Source: a candidate division WOR-3 bacterium
Lineage (GTDB): Bacteria; Hydrothermota; Hydrothermia; JBDRYB01
DNA: 64,000 nucleotides
NCBI GenBank assembly: GCA_039803205.1
Contig: JBDRYB010000001.1
Span: 171,413 to 235,412 of the forward strand
Reading direction: 5' to 3'
Part shown: one piece after another, positions 2,457 through 62,603 of the stretch
Layout of the letters: each line of letters starts with the position of its first letter
Numbering within the stretch: the stretch's first letter is position 1
The notes under the pieces: model-generated
The model's database searches: none
The model's input: the letters and a program-made list of their open reading frames with translations, nothing else
Told to the model about the DNA's origin: nothing
Position numbers and translations under genes: made by a program

Positions 2457-2486
2457 ATTATAGACCATAACCCCGCAGGGATGCAA
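2457..2486 (-). promoter_or_regulatory. Sigma70-type promoter for the riboswitch/btuB transcript
   Basis: TTGCAT-18 nt-TATAAT places the start site at about 2450, the riboswitch 5' end. Confidence 0.6.
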
Positions 2487-38293: not shown

Positions 38294-39817
38294 CTACCTC
38301 ACCGCCAATTTCCCCTTTTGTATATTGGTCTCCCAGATGTAGACCCCTGGCTCAAGGGGGATCCGGTTCTCGCCCTCGTGCAATTCGCCGGAATAGACTA
38401 GCCTTCCGTCGGATTTGTATATCTTTATCCCAACATCATAAGGGGAAATGAAAAGCGCGCCTCCGGGGACCGGGGAGCAGGTTATTTTGGGCCTGTTATA
38501 AACATCCCTTTCTTCAACGGCTGGCGGACAAACATCGGTTATAGTCAGGCTCGGGGTAGTTATAGTGGGGCTTGGGGATGATGTCTGAGGGGAGCAAGTC
38601 GTCACGCTAACCGAGGGCGAGGATGTGATCAGCGAGGGCGTTCCAACGGTTGGGGAGCATTCCTGAACACAGCCGGGATAGTTCCCGTCAGAACCCAGCT
38701 TGAGGACGAGGAAATAAGAACCGCCGGTGCCGAAACTCCTTGTGTATCCAGCGACAGCGTAGCCTCCGTCAGAAGTTTGGATTATGGAGCGGGCATCGTC
38801 ATAATCCGTTCCACCAAATGTCCTTGCCCAAACGAGAGAACCGTTGGAGTTCAGCTTGAGAACGAGGAAATCACCATAGCCAGCGCCGAAGCTCTCTGTT
38901 GCTCCCGCAACAGCGTAGCCTCCATCCGAGGTTTGGGTTATGGAGTAGGCCCAGTCATCGCCTATCCCCCCAAAAGTCCTTGCCCAGGCGAGAGAACCGT
39001 TGGAGTTCAGCTTGAGGACGAGGAAATCTTGATTGCCGGCGCCAAAGCTCTTTGTCTCTCCCGCGACAGCGTAGCCTCCATCAGAGGTTTGGGTGATGGA
39101 GAGGGCCCAGTCATAATTTGTTCCCCCAAATGTCCTTGCCCAGGCGAGAGAACCATCCGGGTTCAGCTTGAGGACGAGGAAATCATAATCGCCAGCGCCG
39201 AAACTATGTGTGGCTCCCGCGACAGCATAGCCTCCATCAGAGGTCTGGGTTATGGACTCGGCCCAGTCATCGCCTATCCTCCCAAATGTCCTTGCCCAGG
39301 CGAGAGAGCCATCCGGGTTCAGCTTGAGGACGAGGAAATCTTGATTGCCGGCGCCAAAGCTCTTTGTCTCTCCCGCGACAGCGTAGCCTCCATCAGAGGT
39401 TTGGGTGATGGAGAGGGCCCAGTCATAATTTGTTCCCCCAAATGTCCCTGCCCAGGCGAGAGAACCGTTGGAGTTCAGCTTGAGGACGAAGAAATCGACA
39501 TACCCGGCGCCGAAACTCGGCGTGTATCCCGCGACAGCGTAGCCTCCGTCAGAGGTCTGGGTTATGGAGTGGGCATAGTCCCAGCCCGTTCCACCAAATG
39601 TCCTGGCCCAAGCAACTGAGCCATCCGGATTCAGCTTGAGGACGAGGAAATCACTATTGCCGGCGCCGAAACTATATGTCCATCCCGCGACAGCGTAGCC
39701 TCCGTCCGCAGTCTGGACTATGGAGCGGGCATCGTCCCAGTTCGTTCCGCCAAAGGCTTTGGCGAAGAGCCACTGAGCGACCAAGATGTTTGTTGTGATA
39801 AAAGCGTATATCATCAT
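38294..39817 (-). CDS. Secreted 52-aa-repeat beta-propeller, paralogue 5 (copy A)
   Basis: Seven near-identical 156-bp repeats; start 39817 or 39814 after GGAGGG. Confidence 0.88.
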   Translation of the reverse strand: MMIYAFITTNILVAQWLFAKAFGGTNWDDARSIVQTADGGYAVAGWTYSFGAGNSDFLVLKLNPDGSVAWARTFGGTGWDYAHSITQTSDGGYAVAGYTPSFGAGYVDFFVLKLNSNGSLAWAGTFGGTNYDWALSITQTSDGGYAVAGETKSFGAGNQDFLVLKLNPDGSLAWARTFGRIGDDWAESITQTSDGGYAVAGATHSFGAGDYDFLVLKLNPDGSLAWARTFGGTNYDWALSITQTSDGGYAVAGETKSFGAGNQDFLVLKLNSNGSLAWARTFGGIGDDWAYSITQTSDGGYAVAGATESFGAGYGDFLVLKLNSNGSLVWARTFGGTDYDDARSIIQTSDGGYAVAGYTRSFGTGGSYFLVLKLGSDGNYPGCVQECSPTVGTPSLITSSPSVSVTTCSPQTSSPSPTITTPSLTITDVCPPAVEERDVYNRPKITCSPVPGGALFISPYDVGIKIYKSDGRLVYSGELHEGENRIPLEPGVYIWETNIQKGKLAVR

Positions 39818-39868
39818 AAAACCCTCCGTTACGCCTAAATTATAAACCTTGTCAAGGGGCAAAACAGC

Positions 39869-39953
39869 CTACCGGATGGCCATCTTGCCGGATTGGTTGC
39901 GGGTTACGGGTTGCGGGTTGCGGGTTGTCCAGATGTAGACCCCTGGCTCAAGG
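39869..39953 (-). pseudogene. Orphan 3' tail of a propeller-family gene
   Basis: Encodes LEPGVYIWTTRNPQPVTRNQSGKMAIR*, nearly identical to the end of 51067-52608. Confidence 0.85.
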
Positions 39954-39989
39954 CTCAGCGAGCCTAAAACCGCGCACCATTATTATCCT

Positions 39990-40763
39990 ATGCCAAGCTG
40001 CAAGAGGATGAGATTGCCGGAGGGCCTCGTGTCCGATATGGTTCGGAAGGGGCTTGGCCCGCAGGAGATAGGGGTCTATTTCGCCCTGATAGCTGACCCG
40101 CAAACCCATCCATCTGGGGTTGTCCTGAACCAGGAGATAACGAGAACGAGGCTCGGTTTGGCCAAGAAAACCTGGAACCGGGTCCTGAGGAGGCTGGAAA
40201 AGGCCGGTTTCGTGATCCCATCCAGGGAGGTAAAAGGGGTTTTGCTCGTCCCGGAGATGAGCTCCTACTGCCTCAGAACCCCCTCTCAGTTTCACAGGGC
40301 TTTACGAGAAATGGCTGGGGTTCCGGATGACATAGCGTCCCCGTGGAAGGAGAGATACAGGGAGGAACTTTCATCCGAAAGGAATAATAAAAGATCTTAT
40401 AATAAAAAACATGAGAAAAATAATACAAAAGATGTTCCTGAGGGATGCGCGAGGGCGAACGAGCTCGTTTCTGCCTTCGCGAGCGCGTGGAAAACCCAGA
40501 ACCCAGGGGTTCCTTTCTCAGGAGGAGGTGGGCTGGGAAGGTTCCTCAAATCAGCCCTGCGGGAACTCCAGCGAGATGGTTGCCCGGAACCGCAGGAGAC
40601 CATAAGAAAGACGATTGCCTATTGGTTCAATCCTCCCCCTGATCTGCACGGGTTCGCGAGCTCTGTCTCATACGGGTGGGAAGGGTTCATAAAGAAATAC
40701 CCGGAGCTCCTCAGGCGGGTTAGATACGACGAGAGGCCAACGCAAACGAGGAGGATCAATTGA
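39990..40763 (+). CDS. Putative phage-type replication initiator/organiser (HTH)
   Basis: N-terminal wHTH-like RTRLGLAKKTWNRVLRRLEKAGFV, N/K-rich linker, coupled to a downstream ATPase. Confidence 0.5.
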   Translation: MPSCKRMRLPEGLVSDMVRKGLGPQEIGVYFALIADPQTHPSGVVLNQEITRTRLGLAKKTWNRVLRRLEKAGFVIPSREVKGVLLVPEMSSYCLRTPSQFHRALREMAGVPDDIASPWKERYREELSSERNNKRSYNKKHEKNNTKDVPEGCARANELVSAFASAWKTQNPGVPFSGGGGLGRFLKSALRELQRDGCPEPQETIRKTIAYWFNPPPDLHGFASSVSYGWEGFIKKYPELLRRVRYDERPTQTRRIN

Positions 40764-41467
40764 TCATCGGTCCGGATTGCACATGCCTCGGCAGGGAGGA
40801 GAAGGCAGGGGATTGCTCGGCCCGAAAGGCCGACCTCTTGATACTCTCGGCATCGGGACCAGGAGAGATAGCCAGGTATTCGCCCTATTGCCGATACACC
40901 CAGGCCATCCTGGGCCCAAAGCGAGAGAGATACGCTGATATTGAAGCAACGAGGGTGATGATCTGGGGCGGATTCCCAAGGGAAATGGCGAAGGGAGCGA
41001 GGCTTTCGGATCTCCCCCCTGAGCTCCTTAAGTGGGATCACCCAAAGATCCTGTTTTTGACCGGAAGGCCAGGCGTCGGGAAGACCTGGGCCGCTGCCGC
41101 CCTCATCCGAAGGGAGCTTGGGGAGGCGATCCTGAAAGGCCCCCTTTGCTCCTATCCTACCGCCTTCGTCTATGCCCCCGATGTTCCGCCATTTTCCAGG
41201 GTCTACGACCTTCCGTGGATCGGCGCGGACCTCCTCCTCATAGATGACCTCCCATTATACGATGCCCATCGCGCCCCACTTTGGCAATCAATTTGCGATT
41301 TCAGATACAGGAACGGGCTGGGCATGCTCATAACAGCGAACACCGAGGCGATTGCCCTGAGCTCCATTGCCCCAAGCTGGAGGCCCGTGCTCTCAAGGCT
41401 ATTTGATGGGGAGCGCTCCTTGGCGATTGAGCTCTCAGGAGCAGACAGGAGGCTCAGAACCTCTTGA
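40760..41467 (+). CDS. DnaC/IstB-like AAA+ ATPase (helicase loader-like)
   Basis: Walker A GRPGVGKT, Walker B DLLLIDDL, RYRN...LITAN, SRL, LSGADRR; N-terminal Cys residues. Confidence 0.75.
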   Translation: MIIGPDCTCLGREEKAGDCSARKADLLILSASGPGEIARYSPYCRYTQAILGPKRERYADIEATRVMIWGGFPREMAKGARLSDLPPELLKWDHPKILFLTGRPGVGKTWAAAALIRRELGEAILKGPLCSYPTAFVYAPDVPPFSRVYDLPWIGADLLLIDDLPLYDAHRAPLWQSICDFRYRNGLGMLITANTEAIALSSIAPSWRPVLSRLFDGERSLAIELSGADRRLRTS

Positions 41468-41672
41468 TTATGAGGCTCAGTATCCAGAATATCACGCTGA
41501 GGACGAGCGAGACCAGGATCGCTGATGTTATGGGAAAGTAAAAGAAGAACCCCTCCCTCTTGATGATTATGTCCCCTGGGAGGCCCCCTCTCTTTAGTAT
41601 CAAAGCGAATGCGATGAGGACCGAACCAAAAGCGACAAGGACCGCTCCGAGGAGAACGAGGAACCTCCCCAT
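41454..41672 (-). CDS. DUF2905 family small membrane protein
   Basis: G.LPGDI.IKRE.F.FYFPITS.I..S. Confidence 0.85.
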   Translation of the reverse strand: MGRFLVLLGAVLVAFGSVLIAFALILKRGGLPGDIIIKREGFFFYFPITSAILVSLVLSVIFWILSLIIKRF

Positions 41673-41673
41673 G

Positions 41674-42741
41674 CTAAACCACGATGAGGTCCTTCGGAGA
41701 CCTCGTTATGACCTCAGCCTCAGGCTCCTTGACCCAAACCATGTCCTCTATCCTCACCCCGAACACTCCCTCAATGTATATGCCCGGCTCAACAGTCGTG
41801 ACCTCGCCGCCCTCAAGGGTGCAATCAGCCAGATACGAGAGGTGGGGGGCCTCGTGCACATCAAGCCCAACCCCGTGGCCGAGCCCGTGGCCGAACCGTT
41901 CCCCGAACCCTTTTTCGGCTATAAAATCCCTCGCCATGGCGTCCGCGTCCCTGCAGGAGAGGCCGGGCCTCAGGCCCACGATAGCCCTTTCCTGCGCCTC
42001 CTTTACTATACCGTATATCTCCGTGAAATCCTCTGGAGGGGAGGAAGGGCCTATCCAGATCGTTCTGGTCATGTCTGAGGCGTAGCCCATGAGCGAGGCG
42101 CCGAAATCAAGGAGCAGGACCGCGTTTTTCTCTATCACGGCATCCCTCGGCCTCGCGTGCGGGAGAGCGGAGTGGGGCCCGCCTGCCACTATGGTCGGAA
42201 AAGCCGGGCCATCAGCCCCTTCTTTTCTCATTAGGTAATCCATCTCAAGCGCGAGCTCGGCCTCCGTGATCTGGCCAGGCCTTATGTTATCAAGGACCCA
42301 GCTGAAGACCCTCTCCGTTATGGCCTGGGCTGAGGATATGGCCTTCACCTCATCCGGGCCCTTTATCTTTCTGAGCGCGTAGACAGCGCCCTTGAGGGGC
42401 AAGAAGGGAATCCCCAGCTTATCCTTGAACGCCTCGTATTGCTCGTATGTCATGGACTCAGGCTCAAAGTATAGCTCGGAAAGCCCTGAGAGGTATTCGG
42501 GGAGTTCCCTGAATATACCCTCGCTGGTTATGCGGATCCTGCACAGATCGCCTATTTCCTCCCTTGATTGTATATCATAACGAAAATCAGTAAAGAAGAC
42601 AGCCTCGTCCCCCCTTATCAAGAGGTAGGCTGATGAGCCCGAGAACCCGGTCAGGTATCGGATGTTCTTGATGTTGGTCACGAGAAACCCGGGTATTCCC
42701 CTGTCTGAGAGGGATTTCTTGAGGCGTTCCAGGTTGTTCAT
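41674..42741 (-). CDS. Xaa-Pro peptidase (M24B)
   Basis: NIRYLTGFSGS, SALPH, DFGA...SDMTRT, HGLGHGVGLDVHE, EPGIY, GVRIED. Confidence 0.93.
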   Translation of the reverse strand: MNNLERLKKSLSDRGIPGFLVTNIKNIRYLTGFSGSSAYLLIRGDEAVFFTDFRYDIQSREEIGDLCRIRITSEGIFRELPEYLSGLSELYFEPESMTYEQYEAFKDKLGIPFLPLKGAVYALRKIKGPDEVKAISSAQAITERVFSWVLDNIRPGQITEAELALEMDYLMRKEGADGPAFPTIVAGGPHSALPHARPRDAVIEKNAVLLLDFGASLMGYASDMTRTIWIGPSSPPEDFTEIYGIVKEAQERAIVGLRPGLSCRDADAMARDFIAEKGFGERFGHGLGHGVGLDVHEAPHLSYLADCTLEGGEVTTVEPGIYIEGVFGVRIEDMVWVKEPEAEVITRSPKDLIVV

Positions 42742-44915
42742 CTGCGGAATATCCTCTTCCAGAACCCGCGCTTCTCGTAATACTTGCCCGTGTATCGCTT
42801 TATCTCAAGCGGGACATCGTTGAACACGGTTCCGAGGAGCCTTATGCTCCCTGTTCTCAGCCTCTCTGCGGCCTCCGCCACATTGCCCTTCCTGCTGAAC
42901 CCGTATCTGACGACGAGTATGACCCCTGATGCCCATCTGGCCATGTGCACGGCGTCGACAACCGGGAGGACGGGGGGGCAATCAAACATGATGCAATCAA
43001 ATCTCCCTTTGGTTTCCATGACCAGCCTGGTGAGGTTCTCGCGCCCAAGGAGGGCTGAGGGATCCGGGGGAACGGTTCCGCCTGGGATCACGGCGAGCCC
43101 ATCCAGAGAAACAACCACATCATCCGGCCTGGCTTTTCCTACCAGGATGTCGGAGAGCCCAGGGGCCAAGGGAACGCCGAATATCTCGTGGAGCCGGGGC
43201 TTCCTCATGTCCCCGTCAACGAGGAGAACCCTCTTCCCCATGCCCGAGAGGGCCCTTGCCACCCCAACCGCGACCGTGCTCTTTCCCTCGCCGGCCGCTG
43301 GGCTGGTTATCACGATGACCTTGGTGGGGTCCTCTGTGGGGATGTAGTCAAGCGATAGCCCGAGCAATTTGAAGGATTCCTCCATGAAGACCCTGGATGA
43401 GCCTGAATCAGCGGCCCTCGGGATCACGGAGAGGCAAGTCGCCTTCGTCAGGCGCTCGAGGACCTTCTTGCTCCTAACGCTAACATCCAGGGACTCCGAT
43501 ATGAATATCCCCAGAATTGAGAGGAGCAGACCAGCCAAAAACCCCATGGCCGCGTTGAATCTCTTTCTGGGCTGGACGGGATAAGGGTCAGGAAGGGCTG
43601 AATCCACCATGACGATGATGCCCGTTTCCTGATTCTCGTTTATCTTTATCTCGTAAAGGTTCTTCGTAAGGGCAGAGTAGACCTCCTCTCCTGCATCAAC
43701 CTTGGCCGCGAGGCGCTCAATCTCTATAATCCTCGCTGGCAGGTCCCTCATCTGAGCCGCGTATCTCCCGTATAGCGCATCAAGCTCCTCAAGCCTCTTC
43801 TGGTAGATCGCCATCCTGTTCGCTATTACGGCCTGCTCCAGGGTGTTTATCTGGGAATCAAGTAGCATTATCGTCGGATGATCGGGTTTATACATGGAAA
43901 GGAGCTTTGCCTTTTCGTTCCTGAGGTTGATGAGGTCAGCCTCCATCATTGAGTATGATGTATCCGGCAAAAGTTTCTTTGATCTTTCGTATGCTGACGG
44001 ATACTGCTTTCTCAGGATCTCAAGCGCGGTCCTCGTCTCCATCCGCTCCTTCTCTATTTCATCAATGGCCCCGAGGATTATCTGGCTCTGGGCAGTTGGC
44101 TCAAACACCCCATACTGCTTTCGCATTTCCACCAAGAGGTCGCCAAGCGAATCCAGCTCGTGCCTCATGTCAGCCAACTGCTCCTCGAGGAACCTTCTCA
44201 TGAGCCTGGAGCGCTCCTTGTCCATTTCCATTATGAACCTGGAGTATTCCCTCGCGTAGGCATTTGTCAGCATTGCGGCCTTCTCCGGCGTCTCAGCGGT
44301 GAGCATGAGGGACATTATCTCGGTCGGCCCCTCCATGAGGACCATCACCCTGCCCTGGAGGTCTCCTGCAACGGCCTGAAGGTCCACGATGTTTATGGAT
44401 ACCCTTTGGCCAGGCTCCAGGCCCTCTGCCTTCACGGTGAATGACCAGTTCTCAACAGGGGTCGGCTCCCCGAACCTCCCGCGCCCAACGAGCTTCCCAT
44501 CCCTTTCAACCCTGAAGCTGTCCCCTTGGGATATTATGGTGTATGACCCCCCTTTGAAGCTATCGGGGAAACTGCAATCGCAGAAGCTTATCTCGGCTCC
44601 GGGGGGCTTTTCGGCCACGAATATGTTCAGGCCAAGTCTTCTTGCGACATTCTCCGCTATAATCCTGCTCTTTATGAGATTCACTTGGGTCTGGAAGGGA
44701 TCTGCCACGAAGAAAGGGGTTCCTACCGCTGTTTTGAGGACGCTTGTTGACCTCGCGAGGTCAACCCTCATCCTGGCTGTTCCCTGATAAACCGGCTTCG
44801 TCGTGAACGATACCACCAAGGAAGCACCAACCGAACCGAGCATTATCGCCGCCACCATTAACCAGTGCTTCTTGAAGAGCTCCCAGTAAAACCTTATCTC
44901 TTTCCTGTCCTCCAT
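42738..44915 (-). CDS. wzc: Polysaccharide co-polymerase / BY tyrosine autokinase
   Basis: Two TMs with a coiled-coil between; ITSPAAGEGKST, VDGDMRKP, DCPPVL; short Tyr cluster YTGKYY. Confidence 0.88.
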   Translation of the reverse strand: MEDRKEIRFYWELFKKHWLMVAAIMLGSVGASLVVSFTTKPVYQGTARMRVDLARSTSVLKTAVGTPFFVADPFQTQVNLIKSRIIAENVARRLGLNIFVAEKPPGAEISFCDCSFPDSFKGGSYTIISQGDSFRVERDGKLVGRGRFGEPTPVENWSFTVKAEGLEPGQRVSINIVDLQAVAGDLQGRVMVLMEGPTEIMSLMLTAETPEKAAMLTNAYAREYSRFIMEMDKERSRLMRRFLEEQLADMRHELDSLGDLLVEMRKQYGVFEPTAQSQIILGAIDEIEKERMETRTALEILRKQYPSAYERSKKLLPDTSYSMMEADLINLRNEKAKLLSMYKPDHPTIMLLDSQINTLEQAVIANRMAIYQKRLEELDALYGRYAAQMRDLPARIIEIERLAAKVDAGEEVYSALTKNLYEIKINENQETGIIVMVDSALPDPYPVQPRKRFNAAMGFLAGLLLSILGIFISESLDVSVRSKKVLERLTKATCLSVIPRAADSGSSRVFMEESFKLLGLSLDYIPTEDPTKVIVITSPAAGEGKSTVAVGVARALSGMGKRVLLVDGDMRKPRLHEIFGVPLAPGLSDILVGKARPDDVVVSLDGLAVIPGGTVPPDPSALLGRENLTRLVMETKGRFDCIMFDCPPVLPVVDAVHMARWASGVILVVRYGFSRKGNVAEAAERLRTGSIRLLGTVFNDVPLEIKRYTGKYYEKRGFWKRIFRR

Positions 44916-44921
44916 AGCGCC

Positions 44922-45500
44922 CTATCGGTTCATCAAGAGGTAAACGGATATTCCAACTGATACTCCGGTTGCCAGCATGTAGAAGATGCCTGACCAGCCT
45001 CCCCACTTTGAGAGGAGGGTTCTCGGCACATATATGATGTCTCCGGATTCAACCCCAGCCTCAATCGCGGACTGGCCTTTCTTCATCGCCGCGTTCAGGT
45101 TGACCCTGGCCGCTGAGCCCTTCTTTATTAGGGAGACCCTTCCGAGGTCTCCTGATGGCGTTGGCCCCCCTGCCAGGGCCACTATCTCAAGGATGGTCTC
45201 GGAGCCCGTGATGTAGTATTCCCTCGGGCCGAAAACCTCCCCTGTGACATAGACCCTGAAGAGGGGCTCAAGGGTCAACTGCGGGTTGTTGTAGTATGTC
45301 TCGTAAGCCTTCTCCAGCTCAGCCCTGAGAGCCTCGGCCTCCTTTCCCCCGGCCGTGACCTTGCCCAGAATGGGTAGGTAGCAACTGCCGTCCTCCAGCA
45401 CCCGGTATTGGCCGGATATCATGGTGTCCGGCCAGAGGTAGACCCTTATCATGTCACCAGGGGCAAGAACAATGGCCGTAAGCCAAGGCAATAGAATCAT
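44922..45500 (-). CDS. Polysaccharide export protein (Poly_export plus SLBB, Wza-like)
   Basis: LAPGD.I, DG..YLP.LG.V..GG, VYVTGEV..P, ALAGGP, SGDIIYVP; no lipobox. Confidence 0.85.
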   Translation of the reverse strand: MILLPWLTAIVLAPGDMIRVYLWPDTMISGQYRVLEDGSCYLPILGKVTAGGKEAEALRAELEKAYETYYNNPQLTLEPLFRVYVTGEVFGPREYYITGSETILEIVALAGGPTPSGDLGRVSLIKKGSAARVNLNAAMKKGQSAIEAGVESGDIIYVPRTLLSKWGGWSGIFYMLATGVSVGISVYLLMNR

Positions 45501-45655
45501 GCTTAGAGGGCAAATGATAAAGAAAACGGATATGACCGCGCAAGCTCCCTTTTCACCTGCCCGGCCCTTCTGTTAAAGGCCGAATCCGGGCCAGCGCGGC
45601 TGGTTGATCCTCACCGCGGGCTCGGATTATCATTTGAGCGCAAAGGAGGTCTCTG

Positions 45656-48340
45656 ATGCTTCTGGAAATACTCATAGCGAGCCAAACCCTCCCCGGCCTC
45701 TACTTTGAGAGCGGCACGGAGGGCACCTGGGCAAAGATATACACGGGAACAGAGTGGATAAACGAGAAACCCATGAGGAGCCAGCCCATCCCCCCGAAGG
45801 TAGCTGACACGGCCGTGCTCTGGGTTGACAGGAACCACGGAAACGCGGTGGCTGAGCATGTGGCAATAACAGGGGACGGGATGCACATCTTCGCTGGATG
45901 GTGGTTGAACAACAAGCGGGTTTCCGCATACAGGACCCTCGGGACGAATGTCCCCATATGGATGGACAGCCTTCCGGACGCTGAGTGGCAGATAAGGGTT
46001 GACGCATCAAGGGTTGACAAGTTCACATCCGCTGTCCCCGGCCACCCAACCATGGATTGCTACGATAAGGGCTCGGCCACGCCCCTCTGGGAGTTCCGCT
46101 ATCCACCGGGATTCCGGGCCGCGGGCTGGAAGACCTCGGCTGTCTCCTACGATGGCGCTGTTGCCGCATTCATAGGCTCAAACGGCGCTGTTGGCAAGGT
46201 ATGGGTCCTCTCCACAGCCACCGGCGAAACCCTGTGGACAAGGGAGTTCAGCTACGCGAGAGGACCATACGGAGTTGATCTCTCCTCAGATGGCTCGGTC
46301 TGCCTGGTCACATGCTACGACTCCTGCTTCGTCTACGAAAACGGCACCCTGAGGGGCAACTTCTACCACTACGGCCAGGTTCCCTCGGCCATATCTGGCG
46401 ATGGGTCCATAGTGGCGTCCGCCAACTACAACGCTACGGTTCAGGTATGGCAGTGGAACGGATCATCCTATGTTCTCCTTTGGCAGAACAGCGTGGGAAA
46501 CACCTGGGCCACATCTGTTGATGTCTCGCGAGATGGCTCAACCATAGCCTGCGGAACAGGATACAGCAACGGAACCCTGAGGGTATATGACATCTCCTCC
46601 TCTACCCCGCTCTGGACATACGCTGGATACGGCGGATACGGCTCAGGGGTCTGGGCCGTGGCCGTTTCCGGGGACGGAGGGCACATCATTGCCGCATCCT
46701 ACGGGGACACCCTTCCAAACGACACATTCAAGGTTTTAACCGTTCACGACAGGTCCTCATCTGTGCCCCTCCTGACCGTGAACGGCCAGCAGGAGCCCGG
46801 CTCATTGTTCTCGTGCGACATATCCGATGACGGGGTATACGCTACGGCCGGAGGAAAGGCTGTCCACGCATACACCCTTGGCAACGGCGGCGAGGTCTAC
46901 GCGATAATCATAGGGGCTTCGCCCTCGGCGAATGTGGGGACAGAGGCGATACTCTCGCCCCCCAAGTGGGTTCAGCTTTCGGGCAACTACCAGGTCCAAG
47001 CCAGGTTCAGGAACTACGGGGATTCCCCCGCGAGCTTCCCCGTTTATTTCAGGATAGACACGGCCGGCGGAACCGTCTACTCATCCTCCTCAAGCATAAC
47101 CAACCTCGGCCCAGGCTCTCCTCAGACCATAACATTCTCTCCGAACTGGACCCCCCCGAACTACAACCTCTACACAGCCTACGCCTGGACAGAGCTCAGT
47201 GGGGATGGCTACCACGGGGATGATACGGTTTCCCTGACAATAAAGTGCTTCCACGATGCTATGGCTGTTAGCATAGATCAGCCTTTTGACACCATAACCG
47301 TGAATCAGCCCTTTACCCCAGGGGTGACCGTCAAAAACAACGGTTCATACACGGAATCCTTCAGGGTGATCCTCAACATTTACGATTCCTATATGACGCT
47401 CATATACTCGGATACAGCGGTCTCATCCCCCATAGCGCCAGACGCGCAGACGAGGGTGACATTCTCCCCCCAGTGGGCGCCGCCAGCGATAGGATCATAT
47501 ACCGCGGAGGCGATAGCTGAGGTCACGGACAACTACTACACGGACAACGACACGGTGAGAAAGCCTTTTGAGGCTACCTACGAGATCATATACGACGATG
47601 GGGTTCCGGAGGCCTACTATGTGGTCAGCTTCTCGGACGACAACAACAAGTTCGCTGTCCGCTTCACACCGACCATAGACCCACCCCTTTACATAACCCA
47701 GGGCAGGATATATGTGAACCAGGCGGGAAAGCCCTTTGACTATGTGATACTCTGCCCTGATGCTGGAGGCCGCCCTGACACGGCCGCTCCCTATGATACG
47801 GTATACAATGTCTCGGCGCCCTCAGCCCCAGCCTGGGCCTTCTTTGATTTCAGCCCGGACATATATCTCACATCCGGGTCCGACATATGGCTCGTCATCC
47901 ACTGGCCCTCATCAAGCCCGGGCGCTCCAGGGGTCGGGGCTGACAACAACTGGTTCGTGGACACAAGGAGCTGGTGGTATAACAACTCATCGGGCTGGAA
48001 CAACTGGACATCCCACGACTGGATGATCAGGGTGACCCAGGACACGGCCCCATCAGATGTCGCTGAGCCCCCGGACAATCTGAGGTTCTGGGTTGGAATG
48101 CCTTCCCCAAATCCAGCGAGGGGCCAAGCCATCCTCTCATACAGCTTGCCGGACGAGACCGATGTTGAGGTAAAGCTATATACGGTTGACGGGAGGCTGG
48201 CGAAGGAGCTCTTCTCAGGGAGAGAGGGGCCCGGAGTCCACAACCTGAGCCTGGCTCTGGATGTGCCGAACGGGGTCTATTTCCTGAGGCTCAGAGCCGG
48301 GAACCAGAAAGCACTGAGGAAGCTGGCTATCCTGCGCTAG
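45656..48340 (+). CDS. Secreted beta-propeller with two CARDB-like domains and T9SS CTD
   Basis: Repeats V.VS.DG; V.N.G...F.V Ig-like modules; CTD PSPNP...LYTVDGRL...PNGVYFLRL. Confidence 0.8.
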   Translation: MLLEILIASQTLPGLYFESGTEGTWAKIYTGTEWINEKPMRSQPIPPKVADTAVLWVDRNHGNAVAEHVAITGDGMHIFAGWWLNNKRVSAYRTLGTNVPIWMDSLPDAEWQIRVDASRVDKFTSAVPGHPTMDCYDKGSATPLWEFRYPPGFRAAGWKTSAVSYDGAVAAFIGSNGAVGKVWVLSTATGETLWTREFSYARGPYGVDLSSDGSVCLVTCYDSCFVYENGTLRGNFYHYGQVPSAISGDGSIVASANYNATVQVWQWNGSSYVLLWQNSVGNTWATSVDVSRDGSTIACGTGYSNGTLRVYDISSSTPLWTYAGYGGYGSGVWAVAVSGDGGHIIAASYGDTLPNDTFKVLTVHDRSSSVPLLTVNGQQEPGSLFSCDISDDGVYATAGGKAVHAYTLGNGGEVYAIIIGASPSANVGTEAILSPPKWVQLSGNYQVQARFRNYGDSPASFPVYFRIDTAGGTVYSSSSSITNLGPGSPQTITFSPNWTPPNYNLYTAYAWTELSGDGYHGDDTVSLTIKCFHDAMAVSIDQPFDTITVNQPFTPGVTVKNNGSYTESFRVILNIYDSYMTLIYSDTAVSSPIAPDAQTRVTFSPQWAPPAIGSYTAEAIAEVTDNYYTDNDTVRKPFEATYEIIYDDGVPEAYYVVSFSDDNNKFAVRFTPTIDPPLYITQGRIYVNQAGKPFDYVILCPDAGGRPDTAAPYDTVYNVSAPSAPAWAFFDFSPDIYLTSGSDIWLVIHWPSSSPGAPGVGADNNWFVDTRSWWYNNSSGWNNWTSHDWMIRVTQDTAPSDVAEPPDNLRFWVGMPSPNPARGQAILSYSLPDETDVEVKLYTVDGRLAKELFSGREGPGVHNLSLALDVPNGVYFLRLRAGNQKALRKLAILR

Positions 48341-48389
48341 ATCCTTCAAGGAGGCGCAGATATGCAACGAGGAGGATAACCGTTATCAG

Positions 48390-49445
48390 GTGAGCCAGAA
48401 CCAGGAGCGAGGCCTCTACATCCACATCCCTTTTTGCCAGAGCAGGTGCCCCTATTGCTCGTTCTACTCCGAAACGGGCCTTCACCTGAGCGATGATTTC
48501 CTGGAGGCCCTGGCTAATGAGGCTCAGGAATTCAAGGGTTATTGCTTCTCAACATGCTACATAGGCGGTGGGACCCCTTCAGTTCTGTCTCCGGATCAAA
48601 CAGAGAGGCTGTTCGGGATAATCCGAGAGAACTTTGAGCTGGACCGGGGCGCTGAGATAACGGTTGAGGTCAACCCGGAGTCCGCGACCGGGGATCTTCT
48701 CAGAACGCTAAAAGGCCTGGGTGCGAACAGGCTCTCTGTGGGCGCGCAGTCCACCTGGGACAGCGAGCTGGAGCGCCTCGGCAGAAGGCACAGGAACTCG
48801 GACACGATAAGGTGCGTGGAGAACGCCTTGGCCGTGGGCTTCTCAAACATAAACCTTGACCTCATCTTCGGGTTCATCGGCCAGACAGAGGAAAGCTGGA
48901 GAAAGAGCCTCGTGCGGGCCACAGAGCTCCCAATAACCCACATATCAACATACGCCCTGAGCCCACACGGAGGGGTTGAGGAGCTCTCCGAGGAAGAGAT
49001 CATCGTCATGTATGAGATTAGGGACGAGGTCTTGGGCGCTCGCGGCTTCCTGAGATACGAGATAAGCAACTACGCGAGGCCCGGCTACGAATCCGTGCAC
49101 AACCTTATATACTGGCGCCGCAAGGAATACCTGGGCCTCGGGCCCTCTGCCTCAAGCTTCATGGGAAACCGGAGGTGGAGGAACGAACCGGATCTTGAGC
49201 TTTACCTGAAGGCCCCTCCTTTCCAGAGAGAGGAAGAAACCCTCACGCCGGAGCAGGCCAGGCTTGAGGAGATATTCCTGGGGCTCAGGCTCTCTGATGG
49301 GATCGATCTTGGGATCTCGGAGCTCCCGGAGGAACTCGTGGGCCTCGTAGAAATAAAGAACCGCCGGGTCTCCTTGACCCCAAAAGGGGTTCTCGTCTCA
49401 GACCGGGTCGCGCTGGAGCTGTTTGAGGTGCTCGGAAACCAATGA
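48390..49445 (+). CDS. hemW: Radical SAM heme chaperone HemW
   Basis: LYIHIPFCQSRCPYCSF, GGGTPS, YEISNYA, HNLIYW. Confidence 0.9.
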   Translation: MSQNQERGLYIHIPFCQSRCPYCSFYSETGLHLSDDFLEALANEAQEFKGYCFSTCYIGGGTPSVLSPDQTERLFGIIRENFELDRGAEITVEVNPESATGDLLRTLKGLGANRLSVGAQSTWDSELERLGRRHRNSDTIRCVENALAVGFSNINLDLIFGFIGQTEESWRKSLVRATELPITHISTYALSPHGGVEELSEEEIIVMYEIRDEVLGARGFLRYEISNYARPGYESVHNLIYWRRKEYLGLGPSASSFMGNRRWRNEPDLELYLKAPPFQREEETLTPEQARLEEIFLGLRLSDGIDLGISELPEELVGLVEIKNRRVSLTPKGVLVSDRVALELFEVLGNQ

Positions 49446-49473
49446 TTCCCGTCCTTTTATCTGCGAATAATCC

Positions 49474-51015
49474 CTATCTGATCGCCAGCTTGCCGGATTG
49501 GTTACGAGTTACGGGTTCCGGGTTACGGGTTGTCCAGATGTAGACCCCTGGCTCAAGGGGGAGCCGGTTCTCGCCCTCCTGCAATTCGCCGGAATAGACT
49601 AGCCTTCCGTCTGCCTTGTATATCTTTATCCCAATATCATAAGGGGAAATGAAGAGCGCGGCGCCCGGAACCGGGGAGCAGGTTATCCTGGAGCCCGGAA
49701 GGATGTCTCTCTCTCTGACATAAACCGTTGGGCAAACCTCGGTTATGGCCGGATCTGGGGTGGTTATAGTTGGGTCTGGGGATGATGTCTGAGGGGAGCA
49801 GTCCGCGCCAACTGAGGGTTCGGTTATGGTTGGCGAAACATCGTAGACGGTTGGGGAGCATTCCTGGACACAGCCGGGATAGTTCCCGTCAGAACCCAGC
49901 TTGAGGACGAGGAAATCATAATCGCCGGCGCCGAAACTCCTTGCCTTTCCCGCGACAGCGTAGCCTCCATCCGCGGTCTGAGCTATGGAGGAGGCCATGT
50001 CCCAGTCTGTTCCGCCAAATGTCCTCGCCCAGGCAAGTGAACCATCCGGGTTAAGCTTGAGGACTAGGAAATCACTATTGCCAGCGCCGAAACTCTGTGT
50101 GTATCCCGCGACAGCGTAGCCTCCATCAGAGGTCTGGTTTATGGAGGAGGCTATGTCCCCGTTTGTTCCGCCAAATGTCCTCGCCCAGGCAAGTGAACCA
50201 TCCGGGTTCAGCTTGAGAACGAAGCAATCAAAATAGCCAGCGCCGAAACTCTGTGTGTATCCCGCGACAGCGTAGCCTCCATCAAAGGTTTGGGTTATGG
50301 AGGAGGCATCATCCGTGCTTGTTCCCCCAAATGTCCTTGCCCAGGCAAGAGAGCCGTCGGAGTTCAGCTTGAGGACGAGGAGATCCCGATCGCCAGCACC
50401 GAAACTATATGTGTGTCCCGCGACAGCGTACCCTCCATCAGAGGTCTGGGTTATGGAATAGGCCCTATCCCAGCTGGTTCCGCCAAATGTCCTTGCCCAG
50501 GCGAGAGAGCCATCCGGGTTCAGCTTGAGGACAAGGAAATCAGCATTGCCAGCGCCGAAACTATATGTGATTCCCGCGACAGCGTAGCCTCCATCCGCGG
50601 TCTGAGCTATGGAGGAGGCTATGTCGTAGTCTGTTCCCCCAAATGTCCTTGCCCAAGCGAGAGAGCCGTTGGAGTTCAGCTTGAGGACGAGGAGATCCCG
50701 ATCGCCAGCGCCGAAACTATATGTGTGTCCCGCGACAGCGTAGCCCCCATCAGAGGTCTGGGTCATGGAGTAGGCCGTGTCCCAGTCTGTTCCGCCAAAT
50801 GTCCTTGCCCAGACAGGTGAGCCATCCGGGTCCAGCTTGAGAACGAGGAAATCATAACCGCCAGCGCCGAAACTCTGTGTGCGTCCCGCGACAGCGTAGC
50901 CCCCATCCGCGGTCTGGACTATGGAGCGGGCCTCGTCCCAGTTCGTTCCGCCAAAGGCTTTGGCGAAGAGCCACTGACCAACCAAGATGTTTGTGGTTAT
51001 TATAGCGTATATCAT
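49474..51015 (-). CDS. Secreted 52-aa-repeat beta-propeller, paralogue 6 (copy B)
   Basis: Seven 156-bp repeats; last blade, linker and CTD almost identical to copy C. Confidence 0.88.
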   Translation of the reverse strand: MIYAIITTNILVGQWLFAKAFGGTNWDEARSIVQTADGGYAVAGRTQSFGAGGYDFLVLKLDPDGSPVWARTFGGTDWDTAYSMTQTSDGGYAVAGHTYSFGAGDRDLLVLKLNSNGSLAWARTFGGTDYDIASSIAQTADGGYAVAGITYSFGAGNADFLVLKLNPDGSLAWARTFGGTSWDRAYSITQTSDGGYAVAGHTYSFGAGDRDLLVLKLNSDGSLAWARTFGGTSTDDASSITQTFDGGYAVAGYTQSFGAGYFDCFVLKLNPDGSLAWARTFGGTNGDIASSINQTSDGGYAVAGYTQSFGAGNSDFLVLKLNPDGSLAWARTFGGTDWDMASSIAQTADGGYAVAGKARSFGAGDYDFLVLKLGSDGNYPGCVQECSPTVYDVSPTITEPSVGADCSPQTSSPDPTITTPDPAITEVCPTVYVRERDILPGSRITCSPVPGAALFISPYDIGIKIYKADGRLVYSGELQEGENRLPLEPGVYIWTTRNPEPVTRNQSGKLAIR

Positions 51016-51066
51016 AAATAAACCTCTGTTAGGCTCAAATTATAAACCTTTGTCAAGGGGCAAAAC

Positions 51067-52608
51067 CTACCGGATCGCCAGCTTGCCGGATTGGTTGCGG
51101 GTTACGGGTTGCGGGTTACGGGTTGTCCAGATGTAGACCCCTGGCTCAAGGGGGAGCCGGTTCTCGCCCTCGTGCAATTCGCCGGAATAAGCTAGCCTTC
51201 CATCGGCCTTGTATATCTTTATCCCAATCTCATAAGGGGAGATGAAGAGCGCGGCGCCCGGAACCGGGGAGCAGGTTATCCTGGAGCCCGGAAGGATGTC
51301 TCTCTCTCTGACATAAACCGTTGGGCAAACCTCGGTTATGGCCGGATCTGGGGTGGTTATAGTTGGGTCTGGGGATGATGTCTGAGGGGAGCAGTCCGCG
51401 CCAACTGAGGGTTCGGTTATGGTTGGCGAAACATCGTAGACGGTTGGGGAGCATTCCTGGACACAGCCGGGATAGTTCCCGTCAGAACCCAGCTTGAGGA
51501 CGAGGAAATCATAATCGCCGGCGCCGAAACTCCTTGCCTTTCCCGCGACAGCGTAGCCCCCATCCGCGGTCTGAGCTATGGAGGAGGCCATGTCCCAGTC
51601 TGTTCCGCCAAATGTCCTCGCCCAGGCAAGTGAACCATCCGGGTTCAGCTTGAGGACTAGGAAATCACCATTGCCAGCGCCGAAACTCTCTGTGTATCCC
51701 GCGACAGCGTAGCCCCCATCAGAGGTCTGGGTTATGGAGGAGGCATGGTCCCAGCTCGTTCCCCCAAATGTCCTTGCCCAGGCAAGAGAGCCATCCGGGT
51801 TAAGCTTGAGAACGAGGAAATCATAACCGCCAGTGCCGAAACTCTGTGTGTATCCCGCGACAGCGTAGCCCCCATCAGAGGTCTGAGCTATGGAGGAGGC
51901 TATGTCGTAGTCTGTTCCCCCAAATGTCCTTGCCCAGGCGAGAGAGCCATCCGGGTTAAGCTTGAGAACGAGGAGATCATAACCGCCAGCGCCGAAACTA
52001 TATGTGTATCCCGCGACAGCGTAGCCTCCATCAGAGGTCTGGGTTATGGAATAGGCCCTATCCCAGCTGGTTCCGCCAAATGTCCTTGCCCAGTGGATAG
52101 AGCCATCCGGGTTCAGCTTGAGGACGAGGAAATCATCATCGCCAGCGCCGAAACTATATGTGTGTCCCGCGACAGCGTACCCTCCATCAGAGGTCTGGGT
52201 TATGGAATAGGCCCTATCCCAGCTGGTTCCGCCAAATGTCCTTGCCCAGTGGATAGAGCCATCCGGGTTCAGCTTGAGGACGAGGAGATCAGCATTGCCA
52301 GCGCCGAAACTATATGTGTATCCCGCGACAGCGTAGCCTCCATCAGAGGTCTGGGTCATGGAGTAGGCTCCGTCCTCGCTTGTTCCGCCAAATGTCCTTG
52401 CCCAGACAGGTGAGCCATCCGGGTTCAGCTTGAGAACGAGGAAATCATAATCGCCAGCGCCGAAACTATATGTGTATCCCGCGACAGCGTAGCCTCCATC
52501 AGAGGTCTGGATTATGGAGCGGGCCTCGTCCCAGTTCGTTCCGCCAAAGGCTTTGGCGAAGAGCCACTGACCAACCAAGATGTTTGTGGTTATGAAAGCA
52601 TATATCAT
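51067..52608 (-). CDS. Secreted 52-aa-repeat beta-propeller, paralogue 7 (copy C)
   Basis: Tandem near-duplicate of copy B; start at ATG 52608 by homology and SD. Confidence 0.88.
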   Translation of the reverse strand: MIYAFITTNILVGQWLFAKAFGGTNWDEARSIIQTSDGGYAVAGYTYSFGAGDYDFLVLKLNPDGSPVWARTFGGTSEDGAYSMTQTSDGGYAVAGYTYSFGAGNADLLVLKLNPDGSIHWARTFGGTSWDRAYSITQTSDGGYAVAGHTYSFGAGDDDFLVLKLNPDGSIHWARTFGGTSWDRAYSITQTSDGGYAVAGYTYSFGAGGYDLLVLKLNPDGSLAWARTFGGTDYDIASSIAQTSDGGYAVAGYTQSFGTGGYDFLVLKLNPDGSLAWARTFGGTSWDHASSITQTSDGGYAVAGYTESFGAGNGDFLVLKLNPDGSLAWARTFGGTDWDMASSIAQTADGGYAVAGKARSFGAGDYDFLVLKLGSDGNYPGCVQECSPTVYDVSPTITEPSVGADCSPQTSSPDPTITTPDPAITEVCPTVYVRERDILPGSRITCSPVPGAALFISPYEIGIKIYKADGRLAYSGELHEGENRLPLEPGVYIWTTRNPQPVTRNQSGKLAIR

Positions 52609-52668: not shown

Positions 52669-52772
52669 CTACCGGATGGCCAGCTTGCCGGATTGGTTGC
52701 GGGTTACGGGTTGCGGGTTACGGGTTGTCCAGATGTAGACCCCTGGGTCAAGGGGGAAATGAAAAAAGCGCA
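52669..52772 (-). pseudogene. Orphan 3' tail of a propeller-family gene
   Basis: PLDPGVYIWTTRNPQPVTRNQSGKLAIR*, joined to a short patch resembling the ALFISP codons (internal deletion). Confidence 0.8.
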
Positions 52773-52953
52773 GTGTTTCAAAATTCCGGATCACCGGACA
52801 AAGGGATTGTCTGAGTGCCAAGAGCCCCTGAGATGTCTCATCGGTGGGATATAGCAAAAGCCTCTTCGAGGCTGAAGGGCTCAGCCTTGTCCGTTCATAA
52901 TCTCTTCCCTTATCCCGTAAGGGCAAAATCTTAGTGGCCTCGCCGGAGGCACA

Positions 52954-53400
52954 TCAAGGCCCCCCAGCCCTGGTTTTCAAAGGCTTAGGGCCATAAGGGG
53001 TCGGCTTTGGCTCATCCGCCCAGGTTCCCGAACGGTTATGAACCTCAAATATACCCTTGCCCACCATCTGAGCTTTGCCCTTGCCCGTCGCGTCAATCAC
53101 CAGGTCCTTGCCGAGGGCCATAACTATGAAGTCCGAGCCGGAAATGCTGAAAGTGCCTATTCCAGGAACGAATTTCCAGGCTTCATCTCCGTCAGCCACC
53201 TTCTCAGGGACCTGCGCGTCCCCGGCCAGGTCCTTATACCACAGCGAACCCTCGCCGGTTATGGTAAGGGAACCATGACCTCTTATATAGACCAGGCCGT
53301 TGCCCTCCGCGTGAAGGGTTTTCTCGGTCTCGCTCTTTCCTTTTTCGTGTCCTTGGCCGCCGGTCCCAGCAAACAAAAGGCCCGCGATCACTAATTTCAC
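52954..53400 (-). CDS. Hypothetical exported beta-rich protein
   Basis: SD GGAGGTG, GTG start, hydrophobic N-terminus, Gly-rich beta repeats. Confidence 0.65.
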   Translation of the reverse strand: MKLVIAGLLFAGTGGQGHEKGKSETEKTLHAEGNGLVYIRGHGSLTITGEGSLWYKDLAGDAQVPEKVADGDEAWKFVPGIGTFSISGSDFIVMALGKDLVIDATGKGKAQMVGKGIFEVHNRSGTWADEPKPTPYGPKPLKTRAGGP

Positions 53401-62186: not shown

Positions 62187-62603
62187 CTATTGAAAGCTCA
62201 GCACCCTCAGGAGCCAGAGAGCGGCAACGGCCCTTTTCTCAAAGACGCCAACTGGGCCATCCAGATGGCCTATTGTCCTGTATGAAGCGTCGGTTATGTC
62301 CCCGTCGTCCTCTATGTGAAGGATAGTTCTGTAGCTCTCATCCGTGACATCCCCATCTTCCTCAACATGGCCTATTGTCCTGTATGAATCGTCGGTTATG
62401 TCCCCGTCGTCCTCAATGTGGCCTATTGTCCTGTATGAATCGTCGGTTATGTCCCCGTCTTCTTCAATATGCGCTATTGTCCTGTAGCTTTCGTCAGTTA
62501 TGCGTCCATCGGCCTCCAAGTGGGCTATCGTCCTGTAGCTGTCATCGCGGACGGTTATATCCCCTGAGAAAACCATCGCGCTCAACAGAAAAATCTCTAT
62601 CAT
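62187..62603 (-). CDS. Small 17-aa repeat protein (five-fold beta-flower-like)
   Basis: About six repeats of DGDITDDSYRTIGHIE(E/D) (51 bp). Confidence 0.7.
   Translation of the reverse strand: MIEIFLLSAMVFSGDITVRDDSYRTIAHLEADGRITDESYRTIAHIEEDGDITDDSYRTIGHIEDDGDITDDSYRTIGHVEEDGDVTDESYRTILHIEDDGDITDASYRTIGHLDGPVGVFEKRAVAALWLLRVLSFQ

What the first reader, a model, noticed from the sequence alone, without database searches (positions are those of the whole stretch)
38294..52608. Beta-propeller repertoire with hypervariable positions and shuffled blades
Seen: copies A, B and C each have seven 156-bp blades with a nearly invariant scaffold, WARTFGGTxxDxAxSIxQTSDGGYAVAGxTxSFGAGxxDFLVLKLNPDGSLA. 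Variation is concentrated at about 8-9 x positions, enriched in W/Y/D/R/H. Variable cassettes recur out of register: DYDIAS in B blade 3 and C blade 5; SWDRAY in B4, C3 and C4; A3 matches A5 and A4 is close to A6. The same first cassette pairs with different second cassettes (SWDRAY with HTY-DR, HTY-DD or YTY-GY). B and C share N- and C-termini but differ internally. Inference: a recombination-diversified family of secreted binders, conceptually like designed repeat-protein libraries or variable lymphocyte receptors.
Basis: partly seen in the sequence, partly recalled or inferred. Interest (0 to 1): 0.88.

Follow-up and report, generated by a model that had tools for sequence, protein, structure and literature searches.

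The report
Recombination-shuffled secreted beta-propeller repertoire
A hot-spring bacterium that seems to lack DNA mismatch repair carries about sixty genes for probably secreted propeller-shaped proteins, and in the youngest few the framework is kept uniform by recombination while eight residues on one face vary quickly and differ between strains, much like fungal self/non-self receptors but outside the cell.

Summary
They are three of four highly repetitive members of a 62-ORF delta-60/DUF5122 beta-propeller family in this WOR-3 genome.

Recombination among blades is significant even on scaffold codons, and blades group by species rather than by gene or position. Eight codons carry about twice the neutral diversity (0 of 240 simulations reach it) and are Tyr/Trp-rich. 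Three of them coincide with top-face active-site positions of the solved homolog CylK.

Closely related MAGs keep older paralogs at about 98% identity but carry different blades on mosaic linkers. Other assemblies reproduce A and half of B. C's blade order is unverified.

I found no reverse transcriptase, silent cassettes or nearby recombinase. MutS1 is missing in 3 of 3 genomes of this genus and present in 38 of 38 class relatives.

Verdict: unprogrammed concerted evolution plus diversifying selection, as in fungal HNWD receptors, not VLR-like assembly. Binding is inferred. Earlier scan notes mention these propellers but not the shuffling.

The parts
38294..39817 (-). Gene A, 507 aa: short hydrophobic N-terminus, 7-blade propeller, Cys/Thr/Ser/Pro linker, CTD-like tail
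   Evidence: P0169; other assemblies P0160 and P0170 give the same residues
38678..39769 (-). Blade array of A (7 x 156 bp); A3-A4 / A5-A6 two-blade duplication, 131-nt exact repeat
39869..39959 (-). Orphan copy of the family's 3' end directly upstream of A; remnant of an upstream tandem copy or junction of an integrated unit
   Evidence: on a unique 0-difference contig from 39924 in run X1
39990..41467 (+). Weak HTH protein plus DnaC-like loader; probable mobile-element remnant abutting the orphan tail of A
   Evidence: remnant status is inference
49474..51015 (-). Gene B, 513 aa, same architecture; AlphaFold2 model pLDDT 91.6
   Evidence: P0122 repeats end of B4 to the C-terminus with one change
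49879..50970 (-). Blade array of B (7 x 156 bp)
51067..52608 (-). Gene C, 513 aa, tandem partner of B (90% identical protein)
   Evidence: no second assembly among the 3 cluster members
51472..52563 (-). Blade array of C (7 x 156 bp); C3/C4 share a 106-nt exact tract
52669..52771 (-). Orphan 3' end upstream of C, shortened by an internal deletion relative to another assembly
   Evidence: P0168 has the same upstream junction and a longer tail
52768..52866 (-). Copy of a dispersed repeat (more than 10 places in the genome), probably an IS end remnant, abutting the orphan tail
   Evidence: no Pfam transposase hit, so the IS label is inference
51093..51124 (.). 7-bp tandem repeat (4.6 copies) inside the coding tail of C; also at 49500-49531, 39895-39927 and 52695-52726
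   Evidence: P0174 shows a shifted reading after this repeat

Best explanation
A, B, C and a fourth gene D outside the window (G000 C1:95410-96951) are the currently homogenising core of a genus-wide expansion of about 60 delta-60/DUF5122 seven-bladed propellers, probably exported by type IX secretion. Step 1 (shown statistically): homologous recombination between 156-bp blades, within and between genes, keeps the scaffold uniform and moves sub-blade tracts, whole blades, linker halves and tails between genes. Step 2 (shown by a custom test): selection favours new residues at eight codons per blade, so mutations there are kept and redistributed. Step 3 (inferred from topology and from CylK): these residues, 56 per protein, form one Tyr/Trp/Asp/Ser/Asn-rich top-face surface that binds external macromolecules. 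Step 4 (correlation in one lineage plus established knowledge): loss of MutS1/MutL removes the barrier to recombination between 80-90% identical blades and raises mutation supply; RecA does the exchange and no dedicated enzyme is needed. Step 5 (inferred): copies that drift below about 70% internal identity stop exchanging and persist as stable paralogs. Diversity arises in the population over generations, not by programmed assembly in each cell. My best guess for the targets is variable surfaces of neighbouring cells, biofilm polymers or phage proteins (adhesin or decoy).
For: PHI-type test p<0.001 on all 21 blades, the 15 inner blades and scaffold codons alone. Exact out-of-register tracts between genes that span variable codons: 2 of 17 tracts of 45 nt or more. 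Scaffold distance within a gene (0.08-0.14) equals that between the four genes (0.09-0.14) and is below that to sister species (0.17-0.24); the 20 inner blades form one group, support 80/85. pN at variable codons 0.56 against scaffold pS 0.27 and scaffold pN 0.06; ratio 2.08 against 0.82-0.85 in neutral gene-conversion simulations, 0 of 240 reaching it; 7 of the 8 sites are also the top 7 by entropy in 194 blades of other paralogs. The model has 28 propeller strands with 1+3 closure, and the two variable loops alternate onto one face. CylK Leu438, Asp440, Glu374, Phe499 and Tyr473 fall on blade positions 11, 13, 13, 13 and 39 (hand count on the alignment; residues from PMC8916777 passages). 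Named WOR-3 MAGs with older paralogs 97.6-98.2% identical carry P0022, P0171 and P0135: none of 11 parsed blades matches any of the 28 A-D blades at more than 5 of 8 sites, and the linkers are A/B, D/A/C and BC/D/A mosaics; 14 alleles of older or short paralogs differ at 0-3 variable sites each. P0025 shares D's start and 61 of 63 tail residues but has a different, older propeller. Zero-, one-, two- and three-blade derivatives exist. MutS_I 0 of 3 in the genus, 38 of 38 elsewhere, confirmed by MutS_V and tblastn; MutL 0 of 3; NucS 0 of 3; RecA present.
Against: No ligand, expression or secretion data. B and C do not hit the T9SS tail HMM at E 0.1, and none of A, B, C hits the Pfam tail model. 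The selection and recombination tests are my own scripts, not codeml or PhiPack; pS at the variable codons is itself high (0.48), partly from multi-step codon paths, so local hypermutation is not excluded. The mismatch-repair link rests on one lineage, in genomes 86-98% complete; MutL was also not found in 6 of 38 relatives. The conserved-scaffold/variable-face pattern occurs in 35 of 114 top homologs, 27 of them without this linker, so it does not need this genus. P0022, P0171 and P0135 have no DNA context and could be paralogs absent from G000 rather than alleles. Terminal blades 1 and 7 do follow position. Short-read assembly is known to garble such repeats (bioRxiv 2025.01.13.632504, section read), and no contig spans a whole gene.
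Confidence: 0.7

Rival explanations
1. Escape rather than binding: the proteins coat the cell and the top face is diversified to evade phage receptor-binding proteins or other attackers. The genetic mechanism is the same but the selective agent differs.
For: Surface export is likely, and fast strain-level turnover fits an arms race.
Against: The variable residues are 5-6 fold enriched in Tyr and Trp and poor in Lys and Glu, which from general knowledge suits a binding site better than an escape surface. They sit at the ligand-contacting positions of CylK.
Confidence: 0.12
2. Recent amplification and neutral concerted evolution in a mismatch-repair-deficient genome, with the loops merely unconstrained.
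For: Highly repetitive propellers arise continuously (PMC9218822, results read in part). Degenerate zero- to three-blade copies and orphan tails show much of the turnover is undirected. The pattern is common in the family.
Against: Variable-codon pN is twice scaffold pS, and 0 of 240 neutral simulations reach it. Four-fold codons interleaved with the variable ones are almost invariant (positions 14, 16, 29, 31). The composition is strongly biased.
Confidence: 0.08
3. The mosaics are assembly chimeras of a few near-identical genes or strains.
For: No laid contig spans a whole gene; 56 of 143 records in run X1 fit two places. B and C share a 317-nt exact repeat. Sister-species assemblies break inside these genes. 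C has no second assembly.
Against: The longest exact repeats inside genes are 131 and 106 nt. Other assemblies give A1-A5, A5-end and B4-end in the same order, although they may derive from the same strain or reads. Misassembly cannot invent the new residues in P0022, P0171 and P0135 or the pN excess. An out-of-register tract exists twice with different flanks whichever path is taken.
Confidence: 0.05
4. A programmed diversifier (VLR-like cassette assembly, vlsE/pilS-type silent cassettes, shufflon or diversity-generating retroelement) acts on these genes.
For: Variation comes in short cassettes between invariant anchors. Some variable codons (10, 38) keep a fixed pyrimidine third base, as adenine mutagenesis would. 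Direct-repeat tails flank A and C.
Against: No RVT_1 in the genome. 62 of 224 variable codons end in G and Trp is common, which adenine mutagenesis of AAY codons cannot give. The orphan pieces hold no blades. No inverted repeats of 30 nt or more. None of 7 integrase matches lies in the window. The shared orphan boundary is not a fixed att site, since another assembly has a longer tail at the C junction.
Confidence: 0.03
5. The proteins are CylK/BrtB-like enzymes whose top-face pockets diversify substrate range.
For: CylK is the only significant PDB sequence match (E 2e-26) and the top fold match.
Against: CylK needs an N-terminal domain supplying Arg105, which these proteins lack. The positions of its catalytic residues are the least conserved here.
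Confidence: 0.02

Closest known systems
Fungal HNWD/NWD NLR WD40 sensors (Podospora het-d, het-e, het-r; PMC1805685, PMC4986451, bioRxiv 2025.01.13.632504)
   Same: Propeller repeats over 80% identical, concerted evolution within and between family members, repeat-number variation, and a few codons per repeat under diversifying selection on the interaction face.
   Different: Not WD40. No NACHT or effector domain. Bacterial, with an N-terminal export-like segment and a CTD-like tail. Eight variable sites per blade rather than four. Most of the roughly 60 paralogs are no longer homogenised. No known ligand.
Highly repetitive prokaryotic propellers (HR-WD40, PMC5587647; continuous amplification from single blades, PMC9218822)
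   Same: High internal identity, divergent predicted hotspot residues, and an age gradient from near-identical to diverged blades.
   Different: The passages I read describe amplification within single genes. Here there is exchange between genes, mosaic linkers, strain-level replacement and a lineage-wide expansion. DUF5122, delta-60 and gene conversion do not occur in the main text of PMC9218822.
delta-60 repeat / DUF5122 / SBBP-like propellers, with CylK as solved homolog
   Same: TIGR02608 142 bits against a cut-off of 76.5 and PF17164 103-116 bits against 27; seven-blade fold.
   Different: No CylK N-terminal domain or conserved catalytic residues. Function of the family is undescribed in the searches run.
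Staphylococcus aureus lpl tandem paralog cluster (PMC2568036, abstract only)
   Same: Tandem exported-protein paralogs shuffled by homologous recombination at a conserved internal region, with a 3' end-spacer-5' end unit travelling together, like the orphan tail-spacer-gene units here.
   Different: lpl has one central conserved region, whereas here seven internal repeats give blade-level mosaics. Lipoproteins of a pathogen rather than CTD-tailed propellers.
Variable lymphocyte receptors, vlsE/pilE cassette systems, diversity-generating retroelements (recalled)
   Same: Variable residues displayed on a constant repeat or scaffold.
   Different: No expression-locus/silent-cassette layout, no reverse transcriptase or template, no dedicated enzyme found.

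Membership tests
delta-60 repeat / DUF5122 propeller | HMM score above curated cut-off | tested here: met
   PF17164 for A, B, C; TIGR02608 for B
delta-60 repeat / DUF5122 propeller | beta-propeller fold | tested here: met
   AlphaFold2 model of B, pLDDT 91.6; top Foldseek match CylK, E 1e-20
T9SS type A cargo | C-terminal sorting domain HMM | tested here: inconclusive
   34 of 51 aligned members including D hit TIGR04183, B and C do not; no Pfam tail hit for A, B, C; all-beta tail in the model
T9SS type A cargo | T9SS machinery in the genome | tested here: met
   SprA over cut-off, 4 PorV-family over cut-off, 125 tail matches among 150 of 187 candidates scored
T9SS type A cargo | cleaved signal peptide and actual export | not testable with these tools
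   hydrophobic helix at residues 2-11 before a conserved Gln; no signal-peptide predictor or proteomics
HNWD-type concerted repeat sensors (works like) | repeats over 80% identical within and between genes, grouping by species | tested here: met
   scaffold identity 84-88% in A-D; distances and tree
HNWD-type concerted repeat sensors (works like) | few codons under diversifying selection on one face | tested here: met
   (custom test); face by topology and CylK mapping
HNWD NLR family (membership) | NACHT domain, effector domain and WD40 repeats | tested here: not met
   none in Pfam or NCBIfam scans
Diversity-generating retroelement | reverse transcriptase | tested here: not met
   PF00078 0 matches in a 96% complete genome; control rings in 3 of 14
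Diversity-generating retroelement | adenine-specific variation from a template repeat | tested here: not met
   third bases T79 C72 G62 A11 of 224, Trp 23
Silent-cassette gene conversion (VLR, vlsE, pilS) | promoterless blade cassettes beside one expression locus | tested here: not met
   blades occur in ORFs with their own starts; orphan pieces by A and C carry tails only
Silent-cassette gene conversion (VLR, vlsE, pilS) | high-rate switching within a clone | not testable with these tools
   only short contigs available
CylK/BrtB alkylating enzymes | N-terminal domain with Arg105 and conserved Tyr473 | tested here: not met
   match covers the propeller only; the Tyr473-equivalent position is among the most variable

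The most novel reading that the evidence does not exclude
This WOR-3 genus runs an extracellular, population-level binder library. Having lost mismatch repair, it keeps a small hyper-recombining master pool of propeller genes that continually remixes positively selected paratope-like cassettes, overwrites older loci and seeds copies that later freeze into about 50 stable specialised binders. That would be a bacterial, secreted counterpart of the fungal non-self receptor repertoire, with repair loss as the enabling step.
Probability: 0.3. Interest if true: 0.85.

Novelty: new variant of a known kind. Interest (0 to 1): 0.62.

Why it matters
Concerted evolution with hypervariable faces is documented for intracellular fungal immune receptors. 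Here the same process appears in a probably secreted family that fills about 4% of a free-living hot-spring bacterium's genome, with young and old members side by side and strain-level alleles available. That makes the amplify-diversify-freeze cycle of repeat proteins, and the role of mismatch-repair loss in it, testable. The consensus-like scaffold with eight naturally randomised positions per blade is also a natural template for engineered binders, possibly heat-stable given the habitat (stability not tested).

Tried and rejected
Site-specific att/integron-like cassette: the orphan tails before A and C start within a few bases of the same motif, but P0168 shows a longer tail at the C junction, so that boundary is a later deletion. 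Rejected for C, open for A.

DGR, shufflon and silent cassettes: rejected.

A 23-nt pattern scan of JGI metagenomes for conspecific loci found 0, so the other-strain genes have no DNA context.

Read laying: contigs only, none spanning a gene. The joints between A, B and C at likeness 88 mostly have short sides or foreign letters and are best read as paralog cross-mapping. Summed depth over the genes is higher in X3 and X4 but is not copy number, so neither was used.

Synteny: in both sister genomes a different gene precedes cheY; no propeller follows hemN in G002 or lies beside the 148-aa ORF in either (output partly cut), so there were no orthologous loci to compare.

Promoter and terminator scan at B/C was at chance level (3 against 2.2; 5 against 3.3). 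Rfam found only a cobalamin riboswitch far away and ARAGORN no tRNA.

Weak lectin HMM hits (BP39L E 4e-7, 29 bits against a cut-off of 400) were not taken as membership. The IS identity of the dispersed repeat got no Pfam support.
Full report
OBSERVATION. Three minus-strand genes, A (38294-39817), B (49474-51015) and C (51067-52608), each encode a short hydrophobic start, seven ungapped 52-residue repeats, a Cys/Thr/Ser/Pro linker and an all-beta tail. Over 21 blades, 22 of 52 positions are invariant and several use one codon throughout, while positions 10, 11, 13, 15, 30, 32, 38 and 39 take 4-10 residues.

THE FAMILY IS MUCH LARGER. The 2.32-Mb genome has 62 ORFs with this blade, 52 with five or more, 369 blades in 89 kb, many in tandem. 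Of 31 members with at least four ungapped blades, four stand apart with 84-88% scaffold nucleotide identity between blades (A, B, C and D at C1:95410-96951); the next is 70% and the rest grade down to 39%. One-, two- and zero-blade deletion derivatives exist. Homologs are labelled candidate division WOR-3 and the four runs holding the DNA are hot-spring metagenomes of one study. Matches at E 1e-20 number 38, 25 and 19 in the three genomes of this genus (capped at 37 candidates scored) and 0-8 in 38 class relatives. The proteins are delta-60/DUF5122 members above cut-off. The genome encodes SprA, PorV-family proteins and 125 T9SS tail matches. Of 51 aligned homologs 34, including D, hit the tail model, but B and C do not, so export is likely but not shown.

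RECOMBINATION. A PHI-type permutation test of my own gives p<0.001 for all 21 blades, the 15 inner blades, and scaffold codons alone. Nearest neighbours differ between blade halves, for example B4 with C3 then B2, and B3 with C5 then C2. Terminal blades 1 and 7 follow position, and B2 and B6 are closest to C2 and C6, but B3, B4 and B5 are closest to C5, C3 and C6. Scaffold distances within genes equal those between the four genes and are lower than to sister species; the 20 inner blades form one group (80/85 support) in a 33-row tree with 13 sister-species blades, three partial genes having given no usable blade. That is the criterion used for concerted evolution in PMC1805685 (abstract and one results section read).

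SELECTION. For 20 inner blades, pN is 0.56 at the eight codons against scaffold pS 0.27 and scaffold pN 0.06. Seven of the eight are independently the seven most variable positions in 194 blades of other paralogs, and give the same ratio (2.1). Simulated gene conversion with neutral variable codons gives 0.82-0.85 (sd 0.16-0.21) in four settings, 0 of 240 reaching 2.08. Caveats: the test is home-made, and pS at the variable codons is also high (0.48), so local hypermutation is not excluded, although four-fold codons interleaved with them are almost invariant.

STRUCTURE. AlphaFold2 on a 51-sequence alignment gives pLDDT 91.6 and 28 propeller strands with the first strand closing the last blade. 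The only significant PDB sequence match and top fold match is CylK. Counting by hand on the alignment, its top-face active-site residues Leu438, Asp440, Glu374, Phe499 and Tyr473 (PMC8916777, passages) fall on blade positions 11, 13, 13, 13 and 39, all hypervariable here. CylK's N-terminal domain is absent, so the shared feature is a ligand-contacting face, not catalysis.

OTHER ASSEMBLIES AND STRAINS. P0160 (A1 to mid A5), P0170 (A5 to end) and P0122 (end of B4 to end) come from other assemblies and repeat the blade order; P0122 differs at one residue, where B6 has C6's residue. They may derive from the same strain or reads. C has no second assembly. Logan contigs of runs X1 and X2 match without differences over parts of A and over most of 39924-49548, but none spans a gene. 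Illumina assemblies garble comparable fungal repeats (bioRxiv 2025.01.13.632504; abstract, first part of the introduction and one results section read). Here the longest exact repeats inside genes are 131 and 106 nt, with 317 nt shared by the B and C ends. Named WOR-3 MAGs whose older paralogs are 97.6-98.2% identical to this genome's carry P0022, P0171 and P0135. Their 11 parsed blades have 79-100% scaffold identity to A-D blades but match at most 3-5 of 8 variable residues, and their linkers switch cleanly between A-, B/C- and D-type segments. Fourteen alleles of older or short paralogs differ at only 0-3 variable sites each. P0025 and two cluster mates share D's start and 61 of 63 tail residues around an older propeller, 66% identical overall, which suggests D's body was overwritten. 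Without DNA context these could be paralogs rather than alleles; either way the pool differs between close genomes.

HOW COPIES MOVE. Orphan copies of the gene's own 3' end lie directly upstream of A and C, next to an HTH/DnaC-like pair and a dispersed repeat. I first read them as att sites, but P0168 has the same junction as upstream of C with a longer tail, so the present boundary is a secondary deletion. They are best read as remnants of tandem arrays that grow, shrink and relocate by tail-to-tail recombination, similar to the 3' end-spacer-5' end unit described for S. aureus lpl (PMC2568036, abstract). For A, a pop-out and reinsertion is consistent with P0022, P0135, P0173 and P0174 but is inference. 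In the two sister genomes no propeller gene was seen at the corresponding sites examined.

WHAT DRIVES IT. No reverse transcriptase, no integrase in the window, no inverted repeats, no blade-bearing silent cassettes, and codon ends incompatible with adenine mutagenesis. RecA is present. MutS_I is missing in 3 of 3 genomes of the genus (86-98% complete) and present in 38 of 38 relatives. MutS_V and tblastn with two relatives' MutS1 find only a weak match, probably MutS2. MutL is missing in 3 of 3, but also in 6 of 38 relatives, and NucS in 3 of 3. That MutS/MutL block recombination between diverged sequences is established knowledge, recalled and not read here. This is one lineage and one event, and the conserved-scaffold/variable-face pattern also occurs in 35 of 114 top homologs, 27 without this linker (the hits were selected by similarity to a repetitive query). 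Repair loss is therefore a plausible amplifier, not a requirement.

COMPARISON AND NOVELTY. The process matches fungal HNWD WD40 sensors (PMC1805685; PMC4986451, passages), but the proteins are not NLRs. Highly repetitive prokaryotic propellers with divergent hotspot residues are known (PMC5587647, passages; PMC9218822, passages and the first third of the results). Eight literature searches showed no description of this family's expansion or shuffling. The WOR-3 survey PMC12542636 has no occurrence of propeller, T9SS, mutS or repeat in its main text (term search only). Supplements were not read and subscription papers are not covered. Earlier scan notes record SARP-regulated secreted propellers and a converted paralog tail in this genome but not blade shuffling.

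VERDICT. The feature is real. It is a new variant of a known evolutionary mechanism in a new setting: a probably secreted binder repertoire diversified by unprogrammed recombination and positive selection in a genus that appears to lack mismatch repair. The VLR analogy overstates the mechanism. Interest 0.62; 0.85 if the master-pool library reading (probability 0.3) holds.

Noticed in passing
genome-wide, G000, G001, G002: MutS1, MutL and NucS were not found in any of the three genomes of this genus, while all 38 class relatives searched have MutS1. Worth a separate look for mutation spectrum and other converted paralogs.
   Followed up: partly
window 39895-39927, 49500-49531, 51093-51124, 52695-52726: A 7-bp tandem repeat inside the coding tail adds three units in frame in B and C; P0174 reads in another frame after it. 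Slippage could switch off the sorting signal, a possible phase-variation site.
   Followed up: partly
window 52768-52866: A repeat of about 30-115 bp dispersed at more than 10 places in the genome; the longer copies encode a short frame that looks like a transposase end (recalled, no Pfam hit).
   Followed up: partly
window 52879-52962: An 84-nt copy (85% identical) of a stretch at G000 C27:23338-23420 that there runs into the start of an HU-like gene (label recalled from the translation, not tested).
   Followed up: no
window 39990-41467: An HTH protein and a DnaC-like loader in the middle of chromosomal genes, with no integrase nearby.
   Followed up: partly
G000 C1:262439-262730 (L035): A zero-blade derivative: family start joined by deletion to the tail, frameshifted here but in frame in P0166. 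P0174 runs on into the family's spacer, hinting at a further copy downstream in other strains.
   Followed up: partly
genome-wide, G000: At least 125 T9SS tail matches and seven PorV-like matches in a 2.3-Mb genome, an unusually large secreted set for its size.
   Followed up: no
window 62265-62546 and 27600-27712: Tandem repeats of period 51/102 in a 138-aa five-fold beta-flower protein (PF21785), and of period 42 in a low-GC gene.
   Followed up: no
window 2281-2464: Cobalamin riboswitch, 83.5 bits.
   Followed up: no
P0003-P0120: Many metagenomic delta-60 propellers with other architectures, some with 10-14 blades and including named Desulfobacterales and Methanosarcinaceae proteins, share the blade; 27 of them show a conserved scaffold with the same divergent sites.
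   Followed up: partly
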